DNA of 64,000 nucleotides from the NCBI GenBank assembly GCA_964612415.1, contig CAZTCT010000001.1, positions 137,949-201,948 of the forward strand, read 5' to 3'. Positions 13,888-48,894 of this stretch are shown one piece after another. The first letter of the stretch is position 1; every line of letters starts with the position of its first letter. The translations under genes were made by a program, and so were the position numbers. Under the pieces are notes generated by a model. The model worked only from the letters and a program-made list of their open reading frames with translations, was not told where the DNA came from and did no database searches. This DNA is from an uncultured Candidatus Saccharibacteria bacterium. GTDB taxonomy: Bacteria > Patescibacteriota > Minisyncoccia > Phycocordibacterales > CAYRGE01.

Positions 13888-16041
13888 ATGGAACGAGATT
13901 ATCCATTGGAGCGAGTACGAAACTTCGGAATCATTGCGCACATTGATGCGGGCAAGACCACGACATCAGAGCGCATCCTTTTCTATACAGGAATGAGCCA
14001 CAAGATCGGTGAAGTACACGAAGGCGAGACAGTCACCGACTGGATGGAACAAGAGCGAGAGCGCGGCATCACCATCACCGCGGCTGCTATTACTTGTTTT
14101 TGGACAAAGACGGGAGACGATGCGACAAACAAAGACAATAAGTATCGTTTCAATATCATCGATACTCCAGGACACATCGACTTCACCGTAGAAGTGAAGC
14201 GATCTCTTCGCGTACTTGATGGCGCGGTTGTGGTATTTGACGGAGTCGCAGGAGTAGAGCCACAGTCAGAGACAAACTGGCGCTACGCAGAAGAAGCACA
14301 AGTGCCACGCATCTGTTTCATCAATAAGCTTGATCGTACAGGCGCATCCTTTGAGCGCTCATATGCAAGTATTTTAAATCGCTTGAGCAAAAAGGCGGTC
14401 CGCGTGCAAATCCCAATCGGCCTTGAAGATCAATTTGAAGGAGTGATTGATCTTCTTAAGATGAAGGCGTATCACTTTGAAGGTGAGATGGGTAATAAGG
14501 TTATTGAAGGAGAAATCCCAGAGAATCTGAAAGCTGACGCAGAGAAGTACCGCCATGAACTCGTAGAACGCATTGCCGAGCAAGACGATGCTCTGATGAA
14601 TGACTATCTTGAAGGGAAGGAAATTCCAATCGAAGATCTTACTCGCGTTCTTCGAAAGGCGGTCGTGACCAATCAGATCTTCCCAGTGTTTGCTGGCTCA
14701 GCACTCAAGAACAAAGGTGTTCAGCTTGTGCTCGATGCCGTCGTTGACTACTTGCCATCACCAACAGATGTTCCTCCAATGAAAGGTATTGATCCTGAAA
14801 CAGGAGAGGAGATAGAGCGCCACGCCTCAGATGACGAGCCATTCTCTGCGCTTGCTTTCAAACTTCAAGCTGACCCGTTCGTGGGACAGCTTACCTTCTT
14901 CCGTGTGTACTCAGGTACCGTAGAGGCGGGTTCATATATTTATAATTCAACAACTGGTGAGAAAGAGCGCTTGGGACGTATCGTGCGATTGCAGGCTGAC
15001 CAGCGAGAAGAAGTAAAGAAAGTTTTCGCAGGAGAGATCGCTGCCGGGGTAGGTCTCAAAGGTGCGAAGACCTCACACACACTTTGTTCTGAGGACAAGC
15101 CAATCATTCTTGAGCAGATCGTCTTCCCAGAGCCGGTTGTTTCTTTGCGTATTGAGCCAAAGACAAAAGCAGACCAAGAGAAAATGGGCCTTGCACTCTC
15201 AAAGCTTGCTGATGAAGACCCAACATTCCGCGTATCTACCGATCCCGAGACTCTTGAGACAGTTATCTGGGGAATGGGTGAGCTTCACCTCGATATCATC
15301 GTTGATCGCATGAAGCGCGAGTTCAAAGTGGAGGCGAATGTCGGTGCTCCACAGGTAGCGTACCGCGAAACAATCACGAAGCCTGCAGAGACGGAGGTGA
15401 AATACATCAAGCAGACTGGTGGTCGTGGACAATACGGTCACGTCAAAATCAAGGTCAAGCCTCTTGAGCCGATTGAGGAGGGTGCGAAGATCGCCAAGAA
15501 CACTAAGCGCGAAGACCACTTTGAGTTCATCAACAACATTAAGGGAGGTGTTATTCCGCAAGAATTCATTCCTGCGGTTGAAAAAGGTTTGCGCGAAGGT
15601 ATGGACCGAGGAGTTTTGGCAGGGTACTCACTTGTTGATGTATCAGTAGATCTCTTTGATGGTTCGTACCACGAAGTAGACTCATCAGAAGTCGCCTTCA
15701 AGGTTGCAGCATCTCAAGCTATTCAAGAAGCTGCACGAAAGGCGGGCCCTGTTATCCTTGAGCCGGTTATGAAGGTTGAGGTTACTACACCGGACAAATT
15801 CATGGGTGATGTCACAGGACATCTCTCATCAAAGCGTGGACAGATCATTGGTATGGAAGACCGAGACATGTATCGTGTCGTTCGTGCCTTCGTTCCGCTC
15901 TCAGAAATGTTTGGCTACATCACTACCCTTCGCTCAATGACAGAAGGACGAGCGAACTTCTCAATGGAGTTTGATCGCTACGAGATCGTTCCGAACAACG
16001 TTGCCGAGGGCGTCATTGCAGCTCGAGCAGGGAAGAAATAG
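13888..16041 (+). CDS. fusA: Elongation factor G
   Basis: N-terminal GTPase [21 protein letters not shown], full EF-G length (717 aa), in str-operon context. Confidence 0.95.
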
Positions 16042-16178: not shown

Positions 16179-16700
16179 ATGACAGAAAATCAGAGTGCTG
16201 GTGAAGCTGGTGCAATGGCTGGCGCAAATCTCTTGTCGGTACTAACGACGGGGGTTCCGATTGATCCACAGAGTCTGATTGTTCCAGAAGGACTTTCTGC
16301 CAGAGAACAGGAGTTGCTGGGGATATTAATGCCCAGACTCTATCAACCTTACATTCAGGTTGAATATAACAAGGTTGCCGACAAATATCGGTTTACTTTT
16401 TCTGACGAGCCAATAAAAACGGTCGAAGAACAGACTCCGTGCGTGGAGACTCTTCACGACGAAACCGGGAAAATGGTGGCGTTTGAAGTCCGGGGTATTG
16501 GCTCGACTTGCCGCACGGAGTTGCCGAATCTTGTTTTACGGCCCCGAAACATACGTCTGTCTGACGCACTCGCTCTTATGGAAAGGATCCATGGCCCATA
16601 TTTCTTCGAGAACGGAGGCCGCACAGGGGCTGAGGGGAATCGAGCGTGGCTTTTCACACAAGCCGAACAGTACGACATTCATATTGACCTCGACTGGTAA
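16179..16700 (+). CDS. Hypothetical protein (173 aa) inserted between fusA and tuf
   Basis: Clean ORF with an upstream SD-like agaggag. No recognisable motifs. Bracketed by a terminator upstream and a promoter-like TTGACT-N16-TATGAT downstream, at about 16744-16775. Confidence 0.45.
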   Translation: MTENQSAGEAGAMAGANLLSVLTTGVPIDPQSLIVPEGLSAREQELLGILMPRLYQPYIQVEYNKVADKYRFTFSDEPIKTVEEQTPCVETLHDETGKMVAFEVRGIGSTCRTELPNLVLRPRNIRLSDALALMERIHGPYFFENGGRTGAEGNRAWLFTQAEQYDIHIDLDW

Positions 16701-16936: not shown

Positions 16937-18127
16937 ATGGCAGATTTTGAACGAAATAAGCCGCACCTCAATGTTGGTACAATCGGCCACGTTGACCACG
17001 GCAAGACGACTCTTACCGCTGCTATCCTCCACTCTCTTGAGTTGGCAGGACAGAAGGTTAAGAAGAAGTCAGTTGATCAGATTGACTCAGCTCCTGAAGA
17101 AAAAGCTCGTGGAATCACGATCGCTCTTTCTCACAACGAGTACGAGACAGAGAAGCGCCACTACGCACACGTAGACGCTCCAGGTCACGCAGACTACATC
17201 AAGAACATGATCACTGGTGCCGCTCAGATGGACGGCGCTATCCTCGTAGTTGCAGCGACCGACGGTGTAATGCCACAGACTCGTGAGCACATTCTCCTTG
17301 CACGCCAAGTTGGTGTCCCAAAGATCATCGTCTTCTTAAACAAAGTAGACATGGTTGATGACAAGGATCTTGTTGACCTCGTTGAAGAGGAAGTTCGCGA
17401 ATTGCTTACCAAGAACGAGTACGACGGAGCAAACGCTCCTGTTATCCGCGGTTCAGGTCTCAAGGCTCTTGAGGCATCATCCAAGGATGACGAGTGGGTA
17501 AAGAAGGTTCTCGAGCTTGCAGCAGCACTTGATGAGTACATCCCGCTCCCAGAGCGAGACACCACCAAGCCGTTCCTTATGCCTATCGAAGACATCTTCT
17601 CAATCGAAGGACGCGGTACAGTTGTTACCGGCCGTATTGAGCGAGGTACTGTAAAGATCGGTGAAGAAATCGAAATCGTTGGTATCAAGGACGCCGCAAA
17701 GACTACTGTTACCGGTATTGAAATGTTCAACAAGCAGCTCCAAGAAGGTGTTGCTGGAGACAACGCAGGAATTCTCCTCCGAGGTCTCAAGAAGGACGAC
17801 ATTACCCGTGGACAGGTTCTTGCAAAGCCAGGTAGCGTTACCCCTCACACCGAATTTGAGGCAGAAGTATACGTACTCTCAAAGGAGGAAGGAGGACGCC
17901 ACACACCATTCTTCTCTGGCTACAAGCCACAATTCTTCGTCCGCACCGCAGACGTAACCGGTGAGGTTACTCTCGCAGACGGCGTAGAAATGGTTATGCC
18001 TGGAGACACTGCGAAGTTCAAGGTTAAGCTCCTTGCTCCAGTTGCTCTCGAAGACCAGCAGCGCTTTGCTATCCGCGAAGGTGGCAAGACTGTAGGTGCA
18101 GGTGTGGTAACAAAGATCGTCGCCTAA
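16937..18127 (+). CDS. tuf: Elongation factor Tu
   Basis: [44 protein letters not shown]; 396 aa. Confidence 0.97.
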
Positions 18128-18149: not shown

Positions 18150-18506
18150 ATGACAGCAAAAGAAGCGACAAAGAAGGCAGCAACGAAAGACAAGGATATC
18201 ATCCCGAAGCTTCGCATTCGCGTACGCGCATACGAGAGCAAGGTGCTTGATATGTCTGTCAAACAGATCATTGATACCGCACTTCGCTACGAAGCAGGTA
18301 TTGAAGGTCCTGTGCCGCTTCCTACAGAGATCAAGAAGTACACCGTCAACCGCTCAACATTCGTTCACAAGAACGCGCGAGAACAGTTCGAAATGCGAGT
18401 GCACAAGCGCTTGATTGATATCTTGAATCCAAATGCGAAAGTCGTAGAGGCACTTACCAACATGAGCCTCCCATCCGGAGTGAGCATTGAGGTAAAGATG
18501 CTCTAG
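18150..18506 (+). CDS. rpsJ: 30S ribosomal protein S10
   Basis: LRIRVRAYESKVLD...TEIKKYTVNRSTFVHKNAREQFEMRVHKRLIDI matches uS10. The short basic N-terminal extension is unusual. Confidence 0.9.
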   Translation: MTAKEATKKAATKDKDIIPKLRIRVRAYESKVLDMSVKQIIDTALRYEAGIEGPVPLPTEIKKYTVNRSTFVHKNAREQFEMRVHKRLIDILNPNAKVVEALTNMSLPSGVSIEVKML

Positions 18507-18527
18507 TCTCTAAAGACTTTGAGTCAA

Positions 18528-18560
18528 CACAAAACCCGCCGAAAGGCGGGTTTTGTTTTA
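18528..18560 (+). terminator. Rho-independent terminator after rpsJ (aaaacccgccgaaaggcgggttttgtttta)
   Basis: GC-rich 7-bp stem with a GAAA loop followed by a U-tract. It severs rpsJ from rplC. Confidence 0.6.
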
Positions 18561-18570
18561 TAATTAAATT

Positions 18571-19074
18571 ATGCGAAAGCGCGCAAAACAATTAATTCTC
18601 AGGAGAATCGTCGCAAGAATTTATGCGGGGACTACTTTTATTACGAATGTTTATTTAGACCATCATTCACATCCTGATACTGCGTGGATTAGGAATATAT
18701 ACATTCTCTTATCTTTTTATACGGAGCTACTTCTTAAAGCAATCTATATTTACGAGAAAGAATATTCAAAGCGCCAGGATTTGGAAAAGGTACTCATTAC
18801 GCAGGGACATAATCTTGAAAGAATCGGGAAGGAATTAGGACCTGATATATTAAAAAAATACAATATTTACAATATAAAAAAATTTAGAAGACATCAATAT
18901 AAAGTAGTTACAGACGTTGGGACTTTCTATGTTAAGGATTTTGTTGATATTCGATATGATTTTTTAACTCCTCGAGTTCGCAAATTAAAAGGCAATGAGC
19001 ATGAAATGTTTCGAATCCAGATAGCTTTTATTAATCGTATTGTGGCCTTCTTGAATGGCCCAGCTTGGTCCTAA
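18571..19074 (+). CDS. Hypothetical protein (167 aa) in a strongly AT-rich island between rpsJ and rplC; possible horizontally acquired gene
   Basis: Local composition is far more AT-rich than the flanking ribosomal genes and rich in Ile/Tyr/Lys/Asn codons. No recognisable catalytic motif. Confidence 0.45.
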   Translation: MRKRAKQLILRRIVARIYAGTTFITNVYLDHHSHPDTAWIRNIYILLSFYTELLLKAIYIYEKEYSKRQDLEKVLITQGHNLERIGKELGPDILKKYNIYNIKKFRRHQYKVVTDVGTFYVKDFVDIRYDFLTPRVRKLKGNEHEMFRIQIAFINRIVAFLNGPAWS

Positions 19075-19084
19075 GTAAAGCCAC

Positions 19085-19112
19085 TTGCATAATTTCTAGA
19101 CTTCTGTATACT
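19085..19112 (+). promoter_or_regulatory. Sigma70-like promoter TTGCAT-N16-TATACT driving rplC onwards
   Basis: -35 at 19085-19090 and -10 at 19107-19112, about 160 nt upstream of the rplC start. A hairpin at 19127-19146 follows in the leader. Confidence 0.4.
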
Positions 19113-19272
19113 CCTCCCATACAAGAAGTACCTACCCTGGTAGGTACGCCAAGTCCCAGATAGCGGCAGCTTATAGAGGGGACCAATGGCATCTCGCGAA
19201 ATGCGGCATGCTATTGCCGTATTTTTTGTTTCAACAGCTCAACGGGATGCCTCGTTGAGCCGTTCAAAACCC

Positions 19273-19884
19273 ATGAAATTCATTCTTGGACGAAAGCAGA
19301 ATATGACCCAATTCTTCAAGGAGGACGGCACCTGTGTGCCTGCCACTGTGCTTTCGGTCGGCCCTATGGTCGTCACCCAGATCAAGACTCCGGAGAAGGA
19401 TGGCTATGTAGCCGTACAGGTAGGGTATGAGACCCAGAAGGAGTCTCGCCTCACAAAGGCAGAGAAGGGACACACCAAGGACCTCGGTGGTTTCACCACA
19501 CTCAAGGAGTTTGCTCCAGGAGAAACCACTTTTGCTATCGGAGACAAGATTGACGCAAGTGTCTTCGCAGAAGGAGACAAAGTGGTCGTAAGCGGTATCT
19601 CAAAAGGAAAAGGTTTCCAGGGTGTAGTGAAGCGCCATGGATTCTCAGGTGGTCCACGTACCCACGGTCAGAAGCACTCTGAGCGTGAGCCGGGCTCTAT
19701 CGGAGGAGGTGGACGCGCAGGTGGTCGTGTTGCAAAGGGTATGCGCATGGCAGGACGCATGGGAGGTGACCGCATTACAGTGAAAGGACTTCGCGTGCTT
19801 GCGGTAGACAAGGATCAAAACCAGATCCTTGTTTCAGGCGCAGTCCCAGGTCGAAGAGGAACACTTATTGAGATCTACGGATAA
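19273..19884 (+). CDS. rplC: 50S ribosomal protein L3
   Basis: Start chosen at MKFILGRKQNMTQFF, which matches the uL3 N-terminus. The longer track ORF from 19186 is less likely. Confidence 0.9.
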   Translation: MKFILGRKQNMTQFFKEDGTCVPATVLSVGPMVVTQIKTPEKDGYVAVQVGYETQKESRLTKAEKGHTKDLGGFTTLKEFAPGETTFAIGDKIDASVFAEGDKVVVSGISKGKGFQGVVKRHGFSGGPRTHGQKHSEREPGSIGGGGRAGGRVAKGMRMAGRMGGDRITVKGLRVLAVDKDQNQILVSGAVPGRRGTLIEIYG

Positions 19885-21062: not shown

Positions 21063-21912
21063 AATTATGAAAACATATTCATCAGCAACTCCATCACGTC
21101 GCAACATGTCTACCGTCCCATTCAAGGAGACGTTGACTGGCGACAAACCAAAGAAGTCGCTTCTCAAGGGAGGGAAGCGTTTTGCTGGACGCTCAAGCTC
21201 TGGTCGCATCGCTGTCCGACACAAAGGAGGTGGACACAAACGCCGTTTCCGAGCTGTAGATTTTGATTACAACAAGAAGGATGTTCCTGCAAAGGTAGAG
21301 ACGGTGGAATACGATCCACACCGATCTGGCTTCATTGCACTTATCTGCTACGCAGATGGTGAACGTCGCTATGTATTAGCACCTCGCTCACTTCGCCCTG
21401 GTACCAAGGTACTTGTTTCAGAGAAGGCAGATATTGCTCCGGGCAATCGTCTTCCACTCGCGAAGATTCCTGTAGGTACGTTTGTATACAACATCGAGAT
21501 CAAGCCCGGCTCAGGCGCACGCATTGCACGCTCTGCAGGAAACTATGCAGAAGTGATCGCTCAAGACGCCGGCTATACTCACGTGAAGATGCCTTCAACA
21601 GAAGTACGCAAGATCTCTGAGAAAGCATGGGCATGTGTTGGAGAAGTCTCCAATCCAGAGCACCGACTTGTTGCTTTAGGTAAGGCAGGACGTTCACGAT
21701 GGCTTGGTATCCGTCCGACAGTACGTGGCTCTGCCATGAACCCTGTAGATCACCCATATGGAGGTGGTGAAGGACGCCAAGGACGTGGTCGCCGACGCGC
21801 AGTCTCTCTCTGGGGCAAGCCGACAGGCAAGGGGCAGAAGACCCGCCGAGCGAAGAAATACTCAAATGTATTCATTGTCTCTCGCAGGAAAGTAGGCAAG
21901 AAGAGGAAGTAA
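21055..21912 (+). CDS. rplB: 50S ribosomal protein L2
   Basis: uL2 motifs (GGGHKRRFR, NPVDHPYGGGEG). 285 aa. Confidence 0.95.
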   Translation: MHKIMKTYSSATPSRRNMSTVPFKETLTGDKPKKSLLKGGKRFAGRSSSGRIAVRHKGGGHKRRFRAVDFDYNKKDVPAKVETVEYDPHRSGFIALICYADGERRYVLAPRSLRPGTKVLVSEKADIAPGNRLPLAKIPVGTFVYNIEIKPGSGARIARSAGNYAEVIAQDAGYTHVKMPSTEVRKISEKAWACVGEVSNPEHRLVALGKAGRSRWLGIRPTVRGSAMNPVDHPYGGGEGRQGRGRRRAVSLWGKPTGKGQKTRRAKKYSNVFIVSRRKVGKKRK

Positions 21913-21915
21913 GAA

Positions 21916-21946
21916 AAACTCCGCACATGTTGCGGAGTTTTTTGTT
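21916..21946 (+). terminator. Rho-independent terminator after rplB (aaaaactccgcacatgttgcggagtttttt)
   Basis: 8-bp stem plus T-tract directly after the rplB stop. Confidence 0.55.
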
Positions 21947-21996
21947 GTGGATAAGATTTTCCTGTCTGCGTGCAAAAAGAAGTATAATGATTTTGT

Positions 21997-22332
21997 ATGG
22001 ACCAAGATAATCAGATGCAAGAGAGTAAATTCTTTTCTAAGGGGACTCTTACATTTGTAGCTATTGCGGTCATTGCCGTTTTGGTATGTGTCTGGTATCT
22101 CCTTGGAGGTACTCCGGAGGGAGCATCGAATGAGATAGAGCAGGAGGGCGGTTTGCAAGAGGAAATGCTCAATGCGTTGCTTAAAGCAAAGGAAGGTGAA
22201 CCAGAAACACCAGCCCCCGCGGCAGAGGATATGGAGCAGGCCCTTGAGGATGCTAAAGCTGGAGAGAAAAGCATAGCTACTCCTTCAATTGAAGAAATGC
22301 AGACAGCACTTGAACAAGTAAAACAAAATTAA
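21997..22332 (+). CDS. Small single-pass membrane protein with acidic C-terminal tail, inserted between rplB and rpsS
   Basis: 111 aa with one hydrophobic helix (LTFVAIAVIAVLVCVWYLLGG) then an E/A-rich tail. A -10 TATAAT lies 8 nt before the ATG, suggesting a near-leaderless transcript. Confidence 0.4.
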   Translation: MDQDNQMQESKFFSKGTLTFVAIAVIAVLVCVWYLLGGTPEGASNEIEQEGGLQEEMLNALLKAKEGEPETPAPAAEDMEQALEDAKAGEKSIATPSIEEMQTALEQVKQN

Positions 22333-22352
22333 CTTTTTAATATAAATCCTTT

Positions 22353-22823
22353 ATGAAAATCTTTCTTCGTCGATTTGCATTTCTTGTGGTGGCGCTTGTG
22401 GCTGCTCTTGGGATCAATTATGCGTCTGCGGCGTGGACAGCGCCAACGGTAGCTCCCCCAGGGGGGAATATTTCAGTCCCGATTAATATAGGGAACGTTG
22501 CTCAAGCCAAGACAGGGACCATTAGTACTGTTGATTTCTATAGTGGGTACAGCAGCAGCAGGTATAATTTTCAGGTAAATAGTGCAGGGGTTGCTTCCAC
22601 TACAGGTGTTACCATCTATGGTAATCCAGTCGTGAAGTGGTGTTCTTCTACTAATCATTGCCTCGGCACCCCGATTCTCTGTATAAGCAACACAGCGAGC
22701 TTCAACAACAACGGCATTGCCGTAAATGTGTATGGTTCAAGTGTTAGCATTACGTATGCAAGTGGTTCATGGAGAGTTCAAGGGGGAGCAGACAACTGTG
22801 CGGGGGGCGTTCTCGTTATATAA
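22353..22823 (+). CDS. Secreted Cys-containing protein with cleavable signal peptide (A-W-T-A-P-T-x-x-P-P-G-G-N N-terminal motif)
   Basis: Signal peptide MKIFLRRFAFLVVALVAALGINYASA, then a Gly/Ser/Thr/Asn-rich mature part with four Cys. 156 aa. Confidence 0.45.
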   Translation: MKIFLRRFAFLVVALVAALGINYASAAWTAPTVAPPGGNISVPINIGNVAQAKTGTISTVDFYSGYSSSRYNFQVNSAGVASTTGVTIYGNPVVKWCSSTNHCLGTPILCISNTASFNNNGIAVNVYGSSVSITYASGSWRVQGGADNCAGGVLVI

Positions 22824-22880
22824 AGGGGTTCTTCGACAACTCCTTTTAGAGGTGTACCTAATCAAGAAAGGGTGGCCTGT

Positions 22881-22908
22881 TTGACAATCTCCCCCTTTCT
22901 GCTAGTAT
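22881..22908 (+). promoter_or_regulatory. Sigma70-like promoter TTGACA-N16-TAGTAT upstream of rpsS
   Basis: Near-consensus hexamers. A structured approximately 120-nt leader follows, including the perfect hairpin ggccac-tatat-gtggcc at 22928-22944. Confidence 0.5.
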
Positions 22909-23034
22909 TTGCTGCAACCCGTCACCCTGGGCCACTATATGTGGCCTTTGTGTTTTGAAGAGGTTTTCTGCCCCTCCGGCAGAAGGGCGCCTTAAGTACA
23001 TAAGGCGAGCGGGTTTCTTTTACGATTTTTCATC

Positions 23035-23391
23035 ATGGCACGTTCAATCTACAAGGGTCCATACGTTGACCCAAAGCTTTTAAAGAAGATAGAAGGTAAA
23101 AAGCCAGACCAAGCTGGCGTTATTCGCACGTGGGCTCGTCGCAGCCAGATCGCCCCTGAAATGGTAGGTTTTGTCTTTGGCGTACATAACGGCAAAGATC
23201 ATGTTGAGGTGCGTATCACAGAAGAAATGGTGGGGCATCGTCTTGGTGAATTTTCTCCTACAAAGAAGTTTATCCGTCACGGAGGAAAGATGCAGAAGGA
23301 ACTTGAGGTTAAGAAGAAGGAGGCGGAGATCGCTGCAGCCAAAGCAGCAAAGGCCTCAACTGACGCAGCTTCAACGAAGCCTGCTAAATAA
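23035..23391 (+). CDS. rpsS: 30S ribosomal protein S19 with Lys/Ala-rich C-terminal extension
   Basis: uS19 core (HNGKDHVEV...[18 protein letters not shown]). Confidence 0.9.
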
Positions 23392-32316: not shown

Positions 32317-35079
32317 ATGGCATCTCAAAATTTTGAGCGTCCTTCGCAGCCACTTGCATCGCCTTCTGCTGAGGTGGAGTACTTAAGGCAGGGCGTGCAC
32401 AACAAAGAGCGCGCATACAGAAAAGAAGGGCAATCCTTTGAGCGTCCAGCTGTTGCCCGTGAAGTTGTTAAGGCATATGAAGCAGCGCCTGTTTCTTCGG
32501 TGCTGGATTCTTCGCTTGCAATGAAACGAAGTGAGATTGAAAAATCTGTGCTCCATCTCTCAGCTTCTCATGAAGAAAATGTTGAGAAACTTGCTTCTAT
32601 TATGGAAACAAAGGGAGTGAAGAATGCACTTGAGGTTGCGAAGCGGGCAGGCAATCCCCATCTTGAAGACGATTTCCATCGCTTTCTCATTCAATATCTT
32701 GTAGAAAACGGATCAATCGCGGGACTCAAAGAAGGGACGCCTCTTTTCAAAGCACTTCACATGAAGCTCTTTGAAGTCATTTTGCCGCATACAGATGATG
32801 CAGGGCGTGATAGAAGATTTTCTGAAATAGTATCAGCGATGGAGCAGTTTTATGCGGGGATGCTCTCAGTGTCTGATCAGGGAGAGAAGCTCAAGCAGCA
32901 CTTTACTATTGAACTTGCGCTTTCAAACTATACAGATGAGATGGTGTTGTACTCTGCAATACCCGGACACAAAGCAGAAATGTTCCAGAAACATCTCTTT
33001 GCTATTTTCCCAGATGCACGCATTACAGAGCGCAGAGAAGATTACAATCCTTTTAATTCCAACGGTATTTCGCTTGGCGCGGTTGGGAGATTCGCGGCGT
33101 CACCGCTGTTGCCTATTAAGACATATGAGTCTTTTGATGCTGATCCACTCAACGTCATTCTCAATGCGTTCTCAAAGATGAAGAAAGACGGGGAAGGGGC
33201 TGCAATACAGATTGTCATTGCACCTGCGGGAGATAAATTCAACAAACTTTATGAGTCTGCGGCGGAGAAGCTTAAGAAGGGTGCGTCGCTTAAAGAGGTG
33301 AGTGCTTCTGCAGGGGCAACCGTTGCGAAAGAATTTCTCGGCACCGCGCGCGATATGTTTTTTGGTTCCAAGACTCCAACCAAAGAAGAATCTAAAGAAG
33401 TAAATCAAAAAGCTGTAGAAGGAGTTACTGCCAAGATCTCTGCACCTATTGTATCGGTCAATATTCGTGTCGTTACATCCGCGGAGACGGAGTTGCGCGC
33501 CAGGACTATTCTTGAAAATCTTATCTCCGCATTCAATCAGTTCAATAATACCAATGGGAATTCATTCACATTTACTCCTTTAGGCAAAAAAGATGTTTCG
33601 CCACTTTTACACCAATTCACCTTCCGACTTTTTTCAGAGGACGAGAGTTTGCCGCTCAATACAAAAGAGTTAACCACGATATTCCATTTTCCGTCTGTTG
33701 GAGTGAAATCATCAGAGCTGAAGTATGCAAAAGTGAAATCATCCGCAGCTCCTCACGGGGCATCGGGGGAGGGCATTCTTTTGGGGGTGAACAATCATCA
33801 AGGCGTGCGTAATGAAATCCACTTTGCCCCAGAAGATAGGATGCGGCACTTCTATGTAATCGGTCAGACTGGCACAGGAAAGACCACACTTCTCAAGAAC
33901 ATGATTATACAAGACATAGAGGCAGGAGCTGGTGTCTGTATGATAGACCCACATGGAAGCGATATTGATGATATATTGGCGGCAATCCCACCTCATCGTG
34001 TGGACGATGTGGTCTACTTTGACCCTGCAAGCCCAATTCCTATGGGGCTTAACATGCTTGAATATGATCCTGCTCACCCAGAACAAAAGACTTTTGTAGT
34101 AAACGAGCTACTTTCTATATTTCAGAAACTCTATGCCAGTTCACCTGAATCAATGGGGCCAATGTTTGAGCAATATTTTCGCAATGCCACCATGCTTGTG
34201 ATTGAAGATCCGAGTACGGGTAGCACGCTGCTCGAGGTTTCTCGCGTGCTGTCTGATGCAAAGTTCCGCGCACTCAAACTCTCGCGTTGCCACAATCCTG
34301 TTGTCCTACAGTTTTGGAACGAGATTGCGTCCAAGTCTTCAGGGGAAGCCGCACTTGCCAATATCGTTCCTTACATCACCAACAAGTTTGATGTATTTCT
34401 CGCCAATGACATCATGAGGCCGATCATTGCCCAAGAAAAATCCGCGTTTAACTTCAGACAGATCATGGATGAGCGCAAGATATTCTTAGTCAATCTTGCA
34501 AAGGGGCGCATTGGAGACATCAACTCGCAACTTCTCGGACTCATTTTGGTAGGAAAAATTCTTATGGCGGCACTCTCTCGTGTAGATGCGCAAGAGCGTC
34601 CAGACTTCTATCTCTATATAGATGAATTTCAGAATGTCACGACCGATTCTATTGCAACGATTTTGTCTGAAGCCCGCAAATACAGGCTCGGGCTCAATGT
34701 CGCGCACCAATTCATTGCTCAATTGGTAGATCGTATTCGCGACGCTGTTTTTGGTAACGTGGGTTCTATGGCGGTATTTCGCGTGGGCACTGAAGATGCG
34801 CAATTCTTGGAAAAACAATTTTCTCCCACCTTTACTGCTCGTGATATCATGAATCTTGAGAACAGGAATGCGTACATGAAGATGCTTGTGAATGGGCAAC
34901 CGGAAGCACCTTTTAATATTGAGACCTTACCGCCTCCAAAAGGGGACATGGCGCTTGTGGCGAAGCTCAAAGAGATCTCATCGCTTACTTATGGACGTGA
35001 TAGGCAGGAGGTAGAGGCAGAAATCGCGAAAAAATACCAAAAAGCCCCTCCCGCACAGCCTTCCCAGCAAGGGGCTTGA
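32317..35079 (+). CDS. Large P-loop ATPase, conjugative coupling protein-like (TraG/TraD/VirD4, TrwB_AAD_bind/AAA_10 type) with approximately 500-aa N-terminal domain of unknown function and no predicted TM anchor
   Basis: Walker A GQTGTGKTT. 22 aa downstream is IDPHGS, resembling the x-DPKG-D of type IV coupling proteins. Walker B is YIDEFQNV, then SEARKYRLGLNVAHQF. The N-terminal half is hydrophilic with no TM helix. Confidence 0.5.
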   Translation: MASQNFERPSQPLASPSAEVEYLRQGVHNKERAYRKEGQSFERPAVAREVVKAYEAAPVSSVLDSSLAMKRSEIEKSVLHLSASHEENVEKLASIMETKGVKNALEVAKRAGNPHLEDDFHRFLIQYLVENGSIAGLKEGTPLFKALHMKLFEVILPHTDDAGRDRRFSEIVSAMEQFYAGMLSVSDQGEKLKQHFTIELALSNYTDEMVLYSAIPGHKAEMFQKHLFAIFPDARITERREDYNPFNSNGISLGAVGRFAASPLLPIKTYESFDADPLNVILNAFSKMKKDGEGAAIQIVIAPAGDKFNKLYESAAEKLKKGASLKEVSASAGATVAKEFLGTARDMFFGSKTPTKEESKEVNQKAVEGVTAKISAPIVSVNIRVVTSAETELRARTILENLISAFNQFNNTNGNSFTFTPLGKKDVSPLLHQFTFRLFSEDESLPLNTKELTTIFHFPSVGVKSSELKYAKVKSSAAPHGASGEGILLGVNNHQGVRNEIHFAPEDRMRHFYVIGQTGTGKTTLLKNMIIQDIEAGAGVCMIDPHGSDIDDILAAIPPHRVDDVVYFDPASPIPMGLNMLEYDPAHPEQKTFVVNELLSIFQKLYASSPESMGPMFEQYFRNATMLVIEDPSTGSTLLEVSRVLSDAKFRALKLSRCHNPVVLQFWNEIASKSSGEAALANIVPYITNKFDVFLANDIMRPIIAQEKSAFNFRQIMDERKIFLVNLAKGRIGDINSQLLGLILVGKILMAALSRVDAQERPDFYLYIDEFQNVTTDSIATILSEARKYRLGLNVAHQFIAQLVDRIRDAVFGNVGSMAVFRVGTEDAQFLEKQFSPTFTARDIMNLENRNAYMKMLVNGQPEAPFNIETLPPPKGDMALVAKLKEISSLTYGRDRQEVEAEIAKKYQKAPPAQPSQQGA

Positions 35080-45780: not shown

Positions 45781-45884
45781 CGGAGACTCCTCCTCTAGAA
45801 GGTGACTTCTGGGGGCACTCTAAACAATGGTGATATTGTTGTCAAAAACAAAAACGCCCACGAAAGGCGTTTTGTTGTTGGCTG

Positions 45885-46277
45885 TGGAGATGGGGGGATT
45901 CGAACCCCCGTGCAAAAGTGTTCCTCGAACGGTTCTACAAAGCGTAGTTTGTTTCATTTGTTTAGATGCAATGAGTAGAAAACAAACAAAATCTTCATTA
46001 CATCGATCCTCTACATTTCAAAATATTGTCGAGGCGAGCAATATTTCTACATCTGAAGATATAACACCTGTTTGATCATGTCAGATTCACAATCAGCAGA
46101 TGGCTACGCGCTATTTAGGCGTATGCAAACGCGAAGTCGTTCTTCGTAAAGTACGGAGAGACGAGCGCCCGCGCTTTTTGTGCGATATTTGCACTTTTGT
46201 TTGGCATGTTTTTCGAGAGTTGCCATCTCGGCTTTGCGCATAAGAGGGGAGTACCCTTGTCGATGCCTAGCATCCCC
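45885..46277 (-). ncRNA. ssrA: Transfer-messenger RNA (tmRNA, SsrA); inferred tag ending ...KNDFAFAYA-stop
   Basis: The minus-strand 5' end GGGGAUGCUAGGCAUCGACAAGGG parallels the E. coli tmRNA 5' GGGGCUGAUUCUGGAUUCGACGGG. The 3' end is ...GGGGGUUCGAAUCCCCCCAUCUCCA, a tRNA-like T-arm plus acceptor. It sits immediately downstream of smpB. An internal ORF ends GCA-UAC-GCC-UAA. Confidence 0.7.
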
Positions 46278-48818: not shown

Positions 48819-48894
48819 TGGTCCGCCTGGCAGGACTCGAACCTACAACCACGGAGATATAAGCTCCGTGCTCTAACCATTGAGCTACAGGCGG
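48819..48894 (-). tRNA. tRNA with anticodon UAU (tRNA-Ile, AUA-reading); CCA encoded
   Basis: Cloverleaf: CCGCCUG-UA-GCUC-AAUGGUUA-GAGC-A-CGGAG-CUUAUAU-CUCCG-UGGUU-GUAGG-UUCGAGU-CCUGC-CAGGCGG-A-CCA. 7/4/5/5-bp stems, U33, A37. Confidence 0.7.

What the first reader, a model, noticed from the sequence alone, without database searches (positions are those of the whole stretch)
21913..23034. Two small envelope-protein genes plus terminator and consensus promoter splitting rplB from rpsS
Between rplB and rpsS, which are normally adjacent, there are four elements:
- A terminator (21916-21946).
- A 111-aa single-pass membrane protein with an acidic tail, whose -10 box sits 8 nt before the ATG, implying a leaderless mRNA.
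- A 156-aa secreted, four-Cys, Gly/Ser/Thr/Asn-rich protein. Its mature N-terminus is A-W-T-A-P-T-V-A-P-P-G-G-N-I-S-V-P-I-N-I-G.
- A near-consensus promoter (TTGACA-N16-TAGTAT, 22881-22908) with a structured approximately 120-nt leader before rpsS.

The W-T-x-P-T...P-P-x-x-N...P-I-N motif after the signal peptide may be a family-specific sorting, processing or pilin-like motif. Placement inside the r-protein superoperon suggests growth-rate-coupled expression of envelope or secreted components.
Basis: partly seen in the sequence, partly recalled or inferred. Interest (0 to 1): 0.5.

Follow-up and report, generated by a model that had tools for sequence, protein, structure and literature searches.

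The report
Surface-fibre gene pair splitting ribosomal operon
Between two ribosomal-protein genes of an uncultured ultra-small (CPR/Parcubacteria) bacterium sits a self-contained two-gene unit. It encodes a small membrane protein and a secreted protein of a very large, uncatalogued family of probable cell-surface fibres, and it lies at a spot where relatives have inserted many unrelated genes.

Summary
All four described elements are present at the stated coordinates.

- **Real genes:** both ORFs are under purifying selection (dN/dS 0.05 and 0.11 at dS of about 1). The pair is kept after rplB in four lineages.
- **Not an oddity of this genome:** in 80 related Paceibacteria, L2|S19 is one of two junctions in the cluster (with S10|L3) that is routinely broken. 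35 of 61 gaps exceed 300 nt, and the cargo is unrelated (toxin-antitoxins, kinases and others). Nearly all relatives have their own rpsS promoter.
- **Insulated unit:** terminator, then a -10 box 8 nt before a conserved ATG (leaderless), then ORF1-ORF2, then the native rpsS promoter. Growth-rate coupling is not supported.
- **The AWTAPT...PPGGN motif is real and widespread.** A 30-residue module directly after the signal peptide occurs in 1586 protein clusters. No Pfam or NCBIfam model covers it. It is fused to variable fibre or adhesin tips (YadA head, S74, collar, shufflon). Syntenic orthologues swap stalk and tip.
- **Closest analogue:** Bdellovibrio MAT fibres. It is not pilin-like.
- **The rpsS leader** is a clade-wide 5' hairpin expanded here into a four-helix junction. 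It is 94% identical between lineages whose synonymous sites are saturated, which makes it a candidate regulatory RNA.

Function is inferred, not shown.

The parts
21067..21912 (+). rplB (uL2), the upstream boundary gene
   Evidence: ORF list. 63-73% identical to uL2 of 80 Paceibacteria genomes.
21914..21945 (+). Intrinsic-terminator-like hairpin (12-bp stem, 5-nt loop) with a T-run, ending the rplC-rplB unit
   Evidence: Perfect inverted repeat. Fold -17.3 kcal/mol, z -4.4. Stem kept and loop changed in L089. Only sub-threshold Rfam matches to sRNA and leader models, on both strands.
21983..21988 (+). TATAAT -10 box, 8 nt before the ORF1 ATG, with no recognisable -35. Inferred promoter of a leaderless ORF1-ORF2 mRNA.
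   Evidence: Sequence. The 21913-21996 spacer is 76/84 identical to L089 although dS is about 1. The -10-to-ATG spacing class is enriched in the window.
21997..22332 (+). ORF1, 111 aa: single-pass membrane protein (TM residues 18-36; Lys residues before the TM suggest N-in) with an acidic tail. By eye the tail holds three E-E-M-x-x-A-L-x-x-x-K-like repeats.
   Evidence: dN/dS 0.11 against L089. Homologue P0155 is 81% identical over the full length. No Pfam, NCBIfam or PHROG family.
22353..22823 (+). ORF2, 156 aa: secreted protein made of a signal peptide, the conserved N-module and a 4-Cys C-terminal domain
   Evidence: dN/dS 0.05 against L005. 1586 related clusters through the N-terminal 60-90 residues. 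No curated family.
22353..22433 (+). Signal peptide (residues 1-27: K/R-rich start, hydrophobic core, A-S-A-A)
   Evidence: Sequence inspection. AF2 gives a confident helix for residues 2-27. Position -1 relative to the invariant W is Ala in 84% of 144 family members. Cleavage was not predicted with a dedicated tool.
22434..22523 (+). N-module (residues 28-57): W-T-x-P-T-x-x-P-P-G-G-N-[VI]-x-x-P-I-N-[VI]-G-x-x-x-Q-x-K-x-G-x-[LI]
   Evidence: Position-by-position conservation in 144 sequences. Lists. The DNA pattern hits 10 genes in 8 fetched loci and none in 2.9 million viral contigs.
22620..22820 (+). C-terminal 4-Cys domain (about residues 90-156), the presumed tip
   Evidence: Shared with the syntenic P0007 at 40% identity with all four Cys aligned. 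Replaced by an unrelated C-terminus in the syntenic P0006. AF2 confidence is low there.
22822..22846 (+). Weak hairpin after the ORF2 stop codon, a possible terminator. Not significant on its own.
   Evidence: Fold z = -0.84. L086 has a clear GC hairpin with a T-run at the equivalent place. The sequence here is only 27/57 identical to L005.
22881..22908 (+). rpsS promoter: TTGACA, 16 nt, TG-n-TAGTAT
   Evidence: 10 of 12 plus TG. Both hexamers are invariant in L005 and L086. A TTGAC-N16-18-TAnnnT promoter precedes rpsS in nearly all of about 60 relatives.
22909..23034 (+). rpsS leader. P1 pairs 22916-22922 with 23009-23015 and encloses hairpins at 22929-22947, 22962-22988 and 22989-23006. A U-rich tail follows.
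   Evidence: Fold of 22915-23040: -44.9 kcal/mol, z -3.0. Promoter plus leader is 145/154 identical to L005 and 127/157 to L086, while synonymous sites differ at 56-80%. 96% of pair cells are kept, with 2 compensatory pairs, in 3 sequences. P1 sits where 28 of 28 relatives with short leaders have a simple hairpin. No Rfam match.
23035..23391 (+). rpsS (uS19), the downstream boundary gene and first gene of the rpsS-rplV-rpsC unit
   Evidence: Pfam Ribosomal_S19 on identical copies.

Best explanation
The 1.1-kb stretch is an autonomous two-gene transcription unit. It sits in a pre-existing break of the ribosomal-protein cluster and is not part of an r-protein operon.

Shown:
- In this clade the cluster is routinely interrupted at L2|S19, and also at S10|L3. 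rpsS has its own promoter and a 5' hairpin leader, and unrelated genes have settled in the gap.
- In the window's lineage the gap holds ORF1-ORF2. Both are under purifying selection and are kept together in four lineages.
- ORF2 belongs to a very large family, absent from Pfam and NCBIfam. Its members share a 30-residue module directly after the signal peptide and have variable C-terminal parts.
- The three syntenic orthologues are mosaic: same N-end, different stalk length, swapped tip.

Inferred:
- Transcription from rplB stops at the 21914-21945 hairpin.
- A -10-only promoter at 21983 starts a leaderless ORF1-ORF2 mRNA.
- ORF1 inserts N-in, with its acidic repeat tail outside the cell.
- ORF2 is exported by Sec and cleaved at or next to the invariant Trp.
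- The N-module is the cell-proximal end that holds the protein on the envelope, and the 4-Cys domain is the exposed, diversifying binding tip. This is the logic of Bdellovibrio MAT fibres and phage tail fibres, applied by an episymbiont for attachment.
- ORF1 may be the membrane-side docking partner or assembly factor. This is the weakest step.

The downstream promoter and the 126-nt leader are the native rpsS control region. Here the clade-wide 5' hairpin plus U-tract has been expanded into a four-helix junction. Its extreme conservation suggests a regulatory RNA, most likely ribosomal-protein feedback or attenuation.
For: Hotspot:
- The L2|S19 gap exceeds 300 nt in 35 of 61 relatives (median 792, maximum 4652).
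- Ten other junctions show 0-1 such cases. S10|L3 shows 24 of 52.
- Cargo includes MazEF, HicA, ArsR, pyruvate kinase, an ABC ATPase, OMP decarboxylase, DAG kinase and a HAD hydrolase.

Promoter and hairpin before rpsS in relatives:
-.
- Only 2% of shuffles reproduce such a hairpin at that place.

Insulation and leaderless start:
-.
- The spacer is 76/84 identical at dS of about 1.
- 12 of 56 window genes have a -10 box ending 5-10 nt before the ATG, against about 2.2 expected.
- In 14 relatives the best promoter match ends only 6-9 nt before the rpsS ATG; 12 of these are 9-of-12 matches.

Real genes:
- dN/dS is 0.05 for ORF2 and 0.11 for ORF1.
- Synteny.

Family:
- 1586 clusters at E <= 1e-3, matching through residues 1 to about 60-90.
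- Motif table.
- C-terminal domains among 10 members: YadA_head, Shufflon_N and Gly_rich_2 above Pfam's cut-off; weaker Peptidase_S74, Collar and T4 gp36 matches.
- The family profile hits Bdellovibrio MAT fibre structures through the GNVGIGTxxPxxKL stalk repeats (8OND, E = 9.6e-6).
- MAT fibres are described as signal peptide, conserved N-domain, trimeric stalk and variable tips, with the conserved end proposed to retain the fibre on the cell (PMC10769870).

Mosaicism at the same locus.

Not viral: with the positive control.

Not a mobile element: there are no flanking repeats.

Leader.
Against: - No experimental or transcript data were available. The promoter, terminator, leaderless start, export and cleavage are all sequence inferences.
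- ORF2 itself has no stalk repeats and no PDB or Pfam match.
- Its AF2 model is poor: pLDDT 62, with the N-module predicted as coil. A fibre or adhesin role for this minimal member rests on family context alone.
- The ORF1 -10 box lacks a -35 or a TG.
- ORF1-like proteins elsewhere share architecture only, with no BLAST similarity. They were seen next to N-module genes in only 2-3 of 6 other contexts, so the ORF1-ORF2 partnership is weakly supported.
- Homology of the N-module to the roughly 130-aa MAT N-domain was not tested.
- The leader covariation rests on three sequences. The closing stem P1 keeps only 81% of its pair cells, and 58 of 500 shuffles do as well.
- The metagenome scan for more copies of the leader found only chance hits.
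Confidence: 0.6

Rival explanations
1. The N-module is a sorting or processing signal rather than a structural docking end. A dedicated peptidase, glycosyl- or acyl-transferase, or an unknown CPR sorting enzyme would recognise the invariant W/P/N/Q/K positions right after Sec cleavage.
For: - The module always begins within 0-1 residue of an A-x-A-type site, at a median position of 28.
- Seven positions are invariant or nearly so: W, three P, N, Q and K.
- AF2 predicts no folded domain for it.
- One member carries Shufflon_N, the constant region of the PilV tip pilin.
- The window copy has an N-I-S sequon.
Against: - There is no prepilin motif (G|F/M-x-x-x-E). The hydrophobic helix precedes the motif instead of following the cleavage site.
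- Only about 36% of members have S at N+2, so the sequon is not conserved.
- No conserved candidate enzyme gene was seen next to family members in 7 contexts.
- A 30-residue conserved stretch is long for a pure recognition tag.
Confidence: 0.25
2. The two genes are co-expressed with ribosomal proteins by read-through, so that envelope components follow growth rate.
For: - The genes are on the same strand, inside the cluster.
- Intrinsic terminators are rarely fully efficient, and the hairpin after ORF2 is weak.
- The cassette has stayed at this place in four lineages.
Against: - There is a strong conserved terminator after rplB.
- The cassette has its own conserved -10 box, and rpsS has its own promoter in nearly all relatives.
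- The same junction holds toxin-antitoxins, kinases and regulators in other genomes. That argues for a permissive site, not a functional link.
- None of the 80 representative genomes has an N-module gene there.
Confidence: 0.1
3. The cassette is a remnant of a phage or mobile element, that is, a tail-fibre gene with a small holin-like membrane protein.
For: - Family members carry phage-type domains: Collar, T4 gp36 and Peptidase_S74, all below Pfam's own cut-off.
- A small single-pass membrane protein followed by a fibre gene recalls lysis or tail modules.
- The site is an insertion hotspot.
Against: - ORF2 and its family have Sec-type signal peptides, which virion proteins lack.
- There is no tblastn hit in 50,697 phage genomes.
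- The motif pattern is absent from 2.9 million viral contigs, with a working positive control.
- There are no flanking repeats or integrase.
- Both genes are under strong purifying selection and in stable synteny.
Confidence: 0.05
4. The conserved rpsS 'leader' is an independent small RNA gene or a riboswitch, not a ribosomal-protein feedback element.
For: - It has its own strong promoter, a compact four-helix junction, and about 75 invariant nucleotides across lineages whose ORF2 proteins are only about 50% identical.
- A U-tract follows P1, so transcripts could end there.
Against: - No Rfam family matches.
- P1 and the U-rich tail occupy exactly the position of the simple leader hairpin that precedes rpsS in 28 of 28 relatives with short leaders. 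The element is therefore an elaboration of an rpsS leader.
- No other promoter lies between it and rpsS.
Confidence: 0.15

Closest known systems
Bdellovibrio bacteriovorus MAT (mosaic adhesive trimer) fibre superfamily (Caulton et al. 2024, PMC10769870; PDB 8OND, 8OML, 8OL4)
   Same: - The layout is the same: signal peptide, a conserved N-terminal part directly after it, a repetitive stalk and exchangeable C-terminal tips, some ending in Peptidase_S74.
- Both families occur in bacteria that must attach to other bacteria.
- The profile of the CPR family matches MAT stalk repeats (GNVGIGTxxPxxKL) at E = 9.6e-6.
- The syntenic orthologues of ORF2 show the same mosaic pattern.
   Different: - The conserved MAT N-domain is about 130 aa and beta-rich. 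The CPR module is about 30 residues, Pro/Gly/Asn-rich and predicted as coil. Homology between the two was not tested.
- ORF2 itself has no stalk repeats.
- CPR cells have no outer membrane, so the anchoring partner must differ.
- The MAT paper's tables of MAT proteins in other organisms list no CPR members.
Phage tail fibres or tailspikes, and trimeric autotransporter adhesins (YadA type)
   Same: Some family members carry Collar, T4 gp36, Peptidase_S74 or YadA_head domains. The principle is the same: a conserved attachment end and a variable receptor-binding end.
   Different: - These proteins are Sec-exported and chromosomally encoded.
- There are no hits in phage genomes or viral contigs.
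- There is no autotransporter beta-barrel anchor.
- ORF2 has none of these domains.
Type IV pilins and pseudopilins
   Same: Short conserved N-terminal region, variable C-terminal part, abundant in CPR genomes. One family member has the Shufflon_N (PilV) region.
   Different: There is no class III signal peptide (no G|F-x-x-x-E) and no hydrophobic helix after the cleavage site. No pilin Pfam family (for example N_methyl) was among the matches for ORF2 or for 10 family members.
Autoregulatory ribosomal-protein leaders (for example the E. coli S10 leader bound by L4; Fu et al. 2013, PMC3616713)
   Same: A structured 5' UTR at the head of a multi-gene r-protein unit, containing a hairpin plus U-tract (attenuator-like). 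It is conserved far more strongly than neighbouring neutral sequence.
   Different: It lies before rpsS, which is normally internal to the S10 operon. It has no Rfam family. The protein partner is unknown. The elaborate form was found in only three lineages.

Membership tests
N-module family (uncurated; defined here by W-T-x-P-T-x-x-P-P-G-G-N-V-x-A-P-I-N-V-G-x3-Q-x-K-x-G after a signal peptide) | Significant sequence similarity through the N-terminal 60-90 residues | tested here: met
   phmmer against 1.84 billion representatives gave 1586 proteins at E <= 1e-3 and 8 at E <= 1e-10. The matches cover query residues 1 to about 60-100.
N-module family (uncurated; defined here by W-T-x-P-T-x-x-P-P-G-G-N-V-x-A-P-I-N-V-G-x3-Q-x-K-x-G after a signal peptide) | All invariant positions present (W0, P3, N11, P15, Q23; near-invariant P7, P8, K25, G27) at canonical spacing, starting about residue 28 after a hydrophobic N-terminus | tested here: met
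   ORF2 has W28, P31, P35, P36, N39, P43, Q51, K53 and G55.
N-module family (uncurated; defined here by W-T-x-P-T-x-x-P-P-G-G-N-V-x-A-P-I-N-V-G-x3-Q-x-K-x-G after a signal peptide) | Covered by an existing curated model | tested here: not met
   No Pfam, NCBIfam or PHROG hit on ORF2. No Pfam or NCBIfam hit over the N-terminus of 10 other members.
Bdellovibrio MAT fibre superfamily | Signal peptide followed directly by a conserved N-terminal domain (about 130 aa, beta-rich) | tested here: inconclusive
   A signal peptide and a conserved module are present. The module is only about 30-60 residues long and AF2 gives coil at pLDDT 66-72. No MAT N-domain sequence was available for comparison.
Bdellovibrio MAT fibre superfamily | Trimeric beta-helix or prism stalk built from GNVGIGTxxPxxKL-type repeats | tested here: not met
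   ORF2 has no such repeat. 58 of 148 family members do, and the family profile hits 8OND, 8OML and 8OL4 through them. ORF2 alone has no PDB hit. Trimerisation cannot be tested here.
Bdellovibrio MAT fibre superfamily | Mosaic, exchangeable C-terminal tips (S74 or other) | tested here: met
   Across the family: YadA_head, Shufflon_N and Gly_rich_2 above Pfam's cut-off, and weaker S74 and Collar matches. At the syntenic locus, P0007 keeps the 4-Cys tip with a longer stalk, and P0006 has a different tip.
Type IV pilin | Class III signal peptide with G|F/M-x-x-x-E and a hydrophobic helix after the cleavage site | tested here: not met
   The sequence is MKIFLRRFAFLVVALVAALGINYASAAWTAPT. The hydrophobic core precedes an A-x-A site, and there is no G-F-x-x-x-E. 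No pilin Pfam family matched.
Intrinsic (Rho-independent) terminator | GC-containing stem-loop followed directly by a U-run, downstream of a stop codon | tested here: met
   Bases 21914-21945: 12-bp stem, 5-nt loop, then T-rich sequence. Fold -17.3 kcal/mol, z -4.4. The stem is conserved in L089. Termination activity cannot be tested here.
Leaderless mRNA | Transcription start at or within a few nt of the start codon (-10 box about 5-10 nt upstream, no SD) | tested here: met
   TATAAT ends 8 nt before ATG 21997, and there is no SD. The box, the spacing and the ATG are conserved, while the internal Met is not. This spacing class is 5-6 times enriched in the window. The 5' end itself cannot be tested here.
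Sigma-70-type promoter (rpsS) | -35 and -10 hexamers at 16-18 nt spacing, conserved in orthologous positions | tested here: met
   TTGACA-16-TAGTAT with TG. Both hexamers are invariant in L005 and L086. Equivalent promoters precede rpsS in nearly all relatives.
Ribosomal-protein autoregulatory leader | Conserved structured 5' UTR at the head of an r-protein transcription unit | tested here: met
   A clade-wide simple form is present in 28 of 28 short leaders.
Ribosomal-protein autoregulatory leader | Bound by a protein encoded in the operon; mimics its rRNA site | not testable with these tools
   The window holds no rRNA gene, and no binding data exist.
Ribosomal-protein autoregulatory leader | Member of a described Rfam leader family | tested here: not met
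   No Rfam match to 22909-23034 at gathering score or at E <= 10.

The most novel reading that the evidence does not exclude
The invariant W-T-x-P-T...P-P-G-G-N...P-I-N...Q-x-K-x-G module is the handle of a CPR-specific surface-display system. Small N-in membrane proteins with acidic repeat tails (ORF1-type) may work with it. Through this system these wall-poor, host-dependent bacteria would mount hundreds of interchangeable fibre or adhesin tips used for host recognition. This would be an anchoring or sorting mechanism with no described counterpart (not sortase, not pilin, not autotransporter). Separately, the ultra-conserved four-helix rpsS leader would be a new ribosomal-protein feedback RNA.
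Probability: 0.3. Interest if true: 0.75.

Novelty: new variant of a known kind. Interest (0 to 1): 0.5.

Why it matters
How CPR/Patescibacteria episymbionts recognise and hold on to their hosts is largely unknown outside type IV pili in Saccharibacteria.

- **A catalogue of candidate attachment proteins.** A family of more than 1,500 sequence clusters shares one conserved mature N-terminus and has mosaic fibre or adhesin tips. Its layout parallels the prey-recognition fibres of Bdellovibrio. The 30-residue handle gives a single, testable target for finding the envelope component these proteins dock to.
- **A practical caveat for marker-gene work.** In Paceibacteria the S10 cluster is regularly broken at S10|L3 and L2|S19, each break with its own promoter and leader. 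This matters for operon-based annotation and for phylogenomic marker extraction that assumes these 16 ribosomal genes are contiguous. It also identifies permissive sites where lineage-specific genes accumulate.
- **A rare candidate regulatory RNA in CPR.** The expanded rpsS leader is a concrete candidate for a cis-regulatory RNA in these bacteria.

Tried and rejected
- Word-indexed protein search with ORF2 found only itself and one 85% relative. The same search with the 40-aa motif peptide found no candidates and wasted a search. The exhaustive phmmer search was needed.
- ORF1 search found only itself and one 81% relative.
- Pfam, NCBIfam and PHROGs gave nothing significant on ORF1 or ORF2. 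The weak Cohesin and cohesin-scaffoldin hits (E 0.16 and 0.045) were rejected as noise.
- The AF2 model of ORF2 with a 51-sequence alignment reached pLDDT 62, with only the signal-peptide helix confident. No fold search was run, because it would be meaningless.
- The metagenome scan for the leader core pattern returned two hits with no rpsS context, which I read as chance matches.
A degenerate DNA pattern was used instead.
An explicit hairpin table with a shuffle control replaced it.
- BLAST found no similarity between ORF1 and the ORF1-like proteins of L091 and L096. Homology is therefore not claimed, only a similar architecture.
- No direct or inverted repeats flank the insert, so a mobile-element origin was rejected.
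- Literature searches for the motif family or the operon break in CPR found nothing specific.
Full report
**Observation.** rplB ends at 21912 and rpsS starts at 23035.
- A perfect 12-bp hairpin with a T-run lies at 21914-21945 (-17.3 kcal/mol, z -4.4).
- ORF1 (21997-22332, 111 aa) has one hydrophobic span at residues 18-36 and an acidic tail (18 D+E against 5 K+R). TATAAT sits at 21983-21988, 8 nt before its ATG.
- After a 20-nt unstructured spacer comes ORF2 (22353-22823, 156 aa). It has four Cys and is 45% G/S/T/N after residue 27.
- The promoter TTGACA-16-TG-n-TAGTAT lies at 22881-22908. It ties for the best match in the 12-kb region scanned and is the only 10-of-12 site with TG.
- The 126-nt leader runs from 22909 to the ATG. 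The stretch folded (22915-23040) forms a closing stem with three hairpins (-44.9 kcal/mol, z -3.0).

**Organism and relatives.** The uL2 protein is 63-73% identical to those of Paceibacteria/Parcubacteria MAGs. uS19 carries an Ala/Lys-rich C-terminal extension like the one reported as specific to Parcubacteria (PMC9297842). Identical copies of the locus occur on four Logan contigs. Three further lineages carry the same arrangement:
- L005/L089: ORF2 85% and ORF1 81% identical.
- L086: ORF2 homologue P0006, with an ORF1-like C-terminus upstream and a terminator, promoter, leader and rpsS downstream.
- A JGI contig with L3-L4-L23-L2, a 112-aa ORF, then P0007.

**Are the ORFs genes?** Yes.
- Between the window and the L005/L089 lineage, synonymous sites differ at 50-62% (dS 0.8-1.3). 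dN/dS is 0.05 for ORF2 and 0.11 for ORF1. For comparison it is 0.03 for rpsS and 0.01 for rplB.
- The homologue P0155 keeps the MDQDN start and has Ile where the window has the internal Met used by gene callers. The 111-aa reading is therefore the conserved one.

**The junction is a clade-wide break, not a peculiarity.**
- In 80 species-representative Paceibacteria loci, the L2|S19 gap exceeds 300 nt in 35 of 61 cases (median 792, maximum 4652). In at least ten more, S19 is not found within 2-5 kb.
- Ten other junctions from EF-Tu to L24 have 0-1 such cases each. S10|L3 is a second break, at 24 of 52.
- The cargo is unrelated from genome to genome: MazE/MazF, HicA, an ArsR regulator, pyruvate kinase, an ABC ATPase, OMP decarboxylase, DAG kinase and a HAD hydrolase.
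- None of the 80 representative loci carries an N-module gene. ORF1-ORF2 is therefore the cargo of the window's own lineage.
- No repeats flank it.

**rpsS has its own control region throughout the clade.**
- A TTGAC-N16-18-TAnnnT promoter precedes rpsS in nearly all relatives.
- In 14 relatives, mostly AT-rich genomes, the best promoter match ends 6-9 nt before the ATG, which implies a leaderless rpsS mRNA. Twelve of these are 9-of-12 matches.
- In all 28 relatives with leaders of 30-48 nt, a GC-rich hairpin begins 4-9 nt after the -10 box (7-9 nt in 25 of them). A U-rich tail follows, and the ATG lies 9-24 nt further on (9-18 nt in 27 of them). Fifteen different stem sequences all keep complementarity. 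Only 2% of shuffles give such a hairpin at that place.
- In the window, P1 (22916-22922 with 23009-23015) and its U-rich tail occupy exactly this position, but the loop holds three extra hairpins.
- Promoter plus leader is 145/154 identical to L005 and 127/157 to L086. About 75 consecutive positions are nearly invariant. By contrast, the spacer between the ORF2 stop and the -35 box is 27/57 identical.
- In three sequences 96% of pair cells are kept, with two compensatory pairs. Slid controls give 35-52%. This is thin evidence: the closing stem P1 keeps only 81% of its cells, and 58 of 500 shuffles match the observed score.
- No Rfam family matches.
- I read the element as the native rpsS leader, elaborated in this lineage into a candidate regulatory RNA. 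The promoter and leader are therefore not a consequence of the insertion.

**The cassette is insulated.**
- The rplB terminator stem is conserved while its loop varies.
- The 84-nt spacer, including TATAAT and the 8-nt distance to the ATG, is 76/84 identical at dS of about 1.
- Twelve of 56 genes in the window have a -10-like hexamer ending 5-10 nt before the ATG, against about 2.2 expected from other offsets.
- One of these is the other inserted gene, at 18571. It follows the rpsJ terminator and has TATAAT 6 nt before its ATG.
- Leaderless expression of ORF1-ORF2 is thus consistent with how this genome appears to work. Growth-rate coupling by read-through is not favoured.

**What ORF2 is.**
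- Exhaustive phmmer found 1586 cluster representatives at E <= 1e-3. They match through the first 60-100 residues and are 57-1266 aa long.
- Anchored on the invariant Trp, 144 sequences give: A(-1) 84%, W 100, T 67, x, P 100, T 85, x, x, P 96, P 86, G 64, G 85, N 100, V 60, x, A 62, P 100, I 56, N 84, V 61, G 77, x, x, x, Q 100, x, K 98, x, G 96, x, L 73. The Trp sits at a median position of 28, after a K/R-rich start and a hydrophobic run of about 17 residues.
- Neither Pfam nor NCBIfam covers this module.
- Ten members scanned carry YadA_head, Shufflon_N and Gly_rich_2 above Pfam's cut-off, and weaker Peptidase_S74, Collar and T4 gp36 matches. 58 of 148 have GNVGIG-type stalk repeats.
- A profile of the family hits the solved Bdellovibrio MAT fibres 8OND, 8OML and 8OL4 through those repeats.
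- MAT fibres are described as a signal peptide, a conserved N-domain, a trimeric stalk and variable tips. The conserved end is proposed to hold the fibre on the predator surface (PMC10769870). That paper's tables list no CPR members.
- The motif is absent from phage genomes and from 2.9 million viral contigs, while the same pattern finds 10 genes in 8 of my fetched loci.

**Mosaicism at the syntenic locus.**
- P0007 has the same N-end (65% identity), about 110 extra residues with stalk repeats, and the same 4-Cys tip (40% identity, all four Cys aligned).
- P0006 shares the first 80 residues (65%) but has an unrelated C-terminus.
- ORF2 is thus a minimal member: handle plus tip, with no stalk.
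- Its AF2 model is poor (pLDDT 62). No fold claim is made.

**ORF1.**
- It has no family assignment.
- Lys residues before the TM segment suggest N-in topology with the acidic tail outside. This is an inference from the positive-inside rule.
- By eye the tail has three E-E-M-x-x-A-L-x-x-x-K-like repeats.
- Proteins of similar size and layout lie directly upstream of N-module or other secreted-protein genes in L091 (twice), and at the head of the operon in L096. L093 has a 160-aa single-pass protein in that position. They have no detectable sequence similarity to ORF1.
- The idea that ORF1 is the membrane partner of ORF2 rests on four-lineage adjacency and this loose recurrence. I rate it at about 0.3-0.4.

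**Verdict.**
The genes are real and of envelope type, the leaderless start is plausible, and the motif marks a family.
- It is partly wrong. The motif is not pilin-like, and there is no good case for growth-rate coupling. The split of rplB from rpsS, the promoter and the leader are ancestral features of the clade.
- The most useful outcome is the definition of a large, uncurated CPR family of secreted mosaic proteins with a shared mature N-terminus.
- Secondary outcomes are the two operon-break hotspots and the ultra-conserved rpsS leader.
- All functional statements are inferences from sequence and comparison.

Noticed in passing
window 18506-19272; loci L006-L085: S10|L3 is a second clade-wide break of the cluster: 24 of 52 relatives have gaps over 300 nt, up to 2751. 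In the window it holds a 167-aa ORF (18571-19074). That ORF follows the rpsJ terminator (18529-18556) and has TATAAT 6 nt before its ATG, the same layout as ORF1.
   Followed up: partly
window 19085-19272: By eye, rplC also has a promoter-like site (TTGCAT-16-TATACT at about 19085). A leader of about 160 nt follows, holding several hairpins, one of them terminator-like with a T-run (19198-19225). It may be a second r-protein leader. The ORF list extends rplC to 19186 as an artefact; the conserved start looks like the MKFILGRK Met at 19273.
   Followed up: no
window 16179-16700: A 173-aa ORF of unknown function lies between fusA (13888-16041) and tuf (16937-18127). This is another interruption of the str/S10 gene string.
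   Followed up: no
window, 56 long ORFs: Twelve of 56 genes have a -10-like hexamer ending 5-10 nt before the ATG, several with an extended TG, against about 2.2 expected. The set includes fusA (13888) and large genes at 32317, 35115 and 49011. Start codons examined in the S10 cluster also lack obvious Shine-Dalgarno sequences. Leaderless mRNAs may be a major mode of expression in this genome.
   Followed up: partly
window 48819-48894 (-): A tRNA-Ile with anticodon UAU (tat) is called by ARAGORN. From general knowledge, this anticodon is unusual in bacteria, which normally read AUA with a lysidine-modified CAU tRNA.
   Followed up: no
window 45882-46277 (-): A full-length tmRNA (Rfam RF00023, 121.8 bits).
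   Followed up: no
L006, L007, L011-L013, L015, L016, L020, L029, L032, L034 (upstream of rpsS): An AT-rich subgroup of Paceibacteria has a near-identical TTGACT-N16/17-TAGTAT promoter followed by AAAAAACC-ATG. The implied rpsS mRNA is leaderless. Their L2|S19 gaps are 37-116 nt, mostly 104-116.
   Followed up: partly
L091 3725-4063 and 8130-8432; L096 791-1123: Small proteins (100-112 aa) with one N-terminal TM segment and 2-3 acidic C-terminal repeats of the type [ST]-x-E-E-x3-[IL]-x2-[LA], ending in N or Q. They sit directly upstream of secreted-protein genes in unrelated CPR contigs. Their architecture matches ORF1, but no sequence similarity is detectable.
   Followed up: partly
L090 5274-6579; L096 4001-5586: N-module genes occur as adjacent tandem pairs with different C-terminal parts. 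This fits local duplication followed by tip diversification.
   Followed up: no
L071, L049, L065, L055, L043 (rpsS leaders): Other relatives also have enlarged rpsS leaders (66-126 nt), with extra GC-rich hairpins within or after the conserved leader hairpin. L071, L065 and the window share a CTGCC...GGCAG hairpin core. It is unclear whether these expansions are related.
   Followed up: no
window 23035-23391: uS19 is 118 aa and has an Ala/Lys-rich C-terminal tail ([26 protein letters not shown]). It resembles the extension reported as specific to Parcubacteria in PMC9297842.
   Followed up: partly
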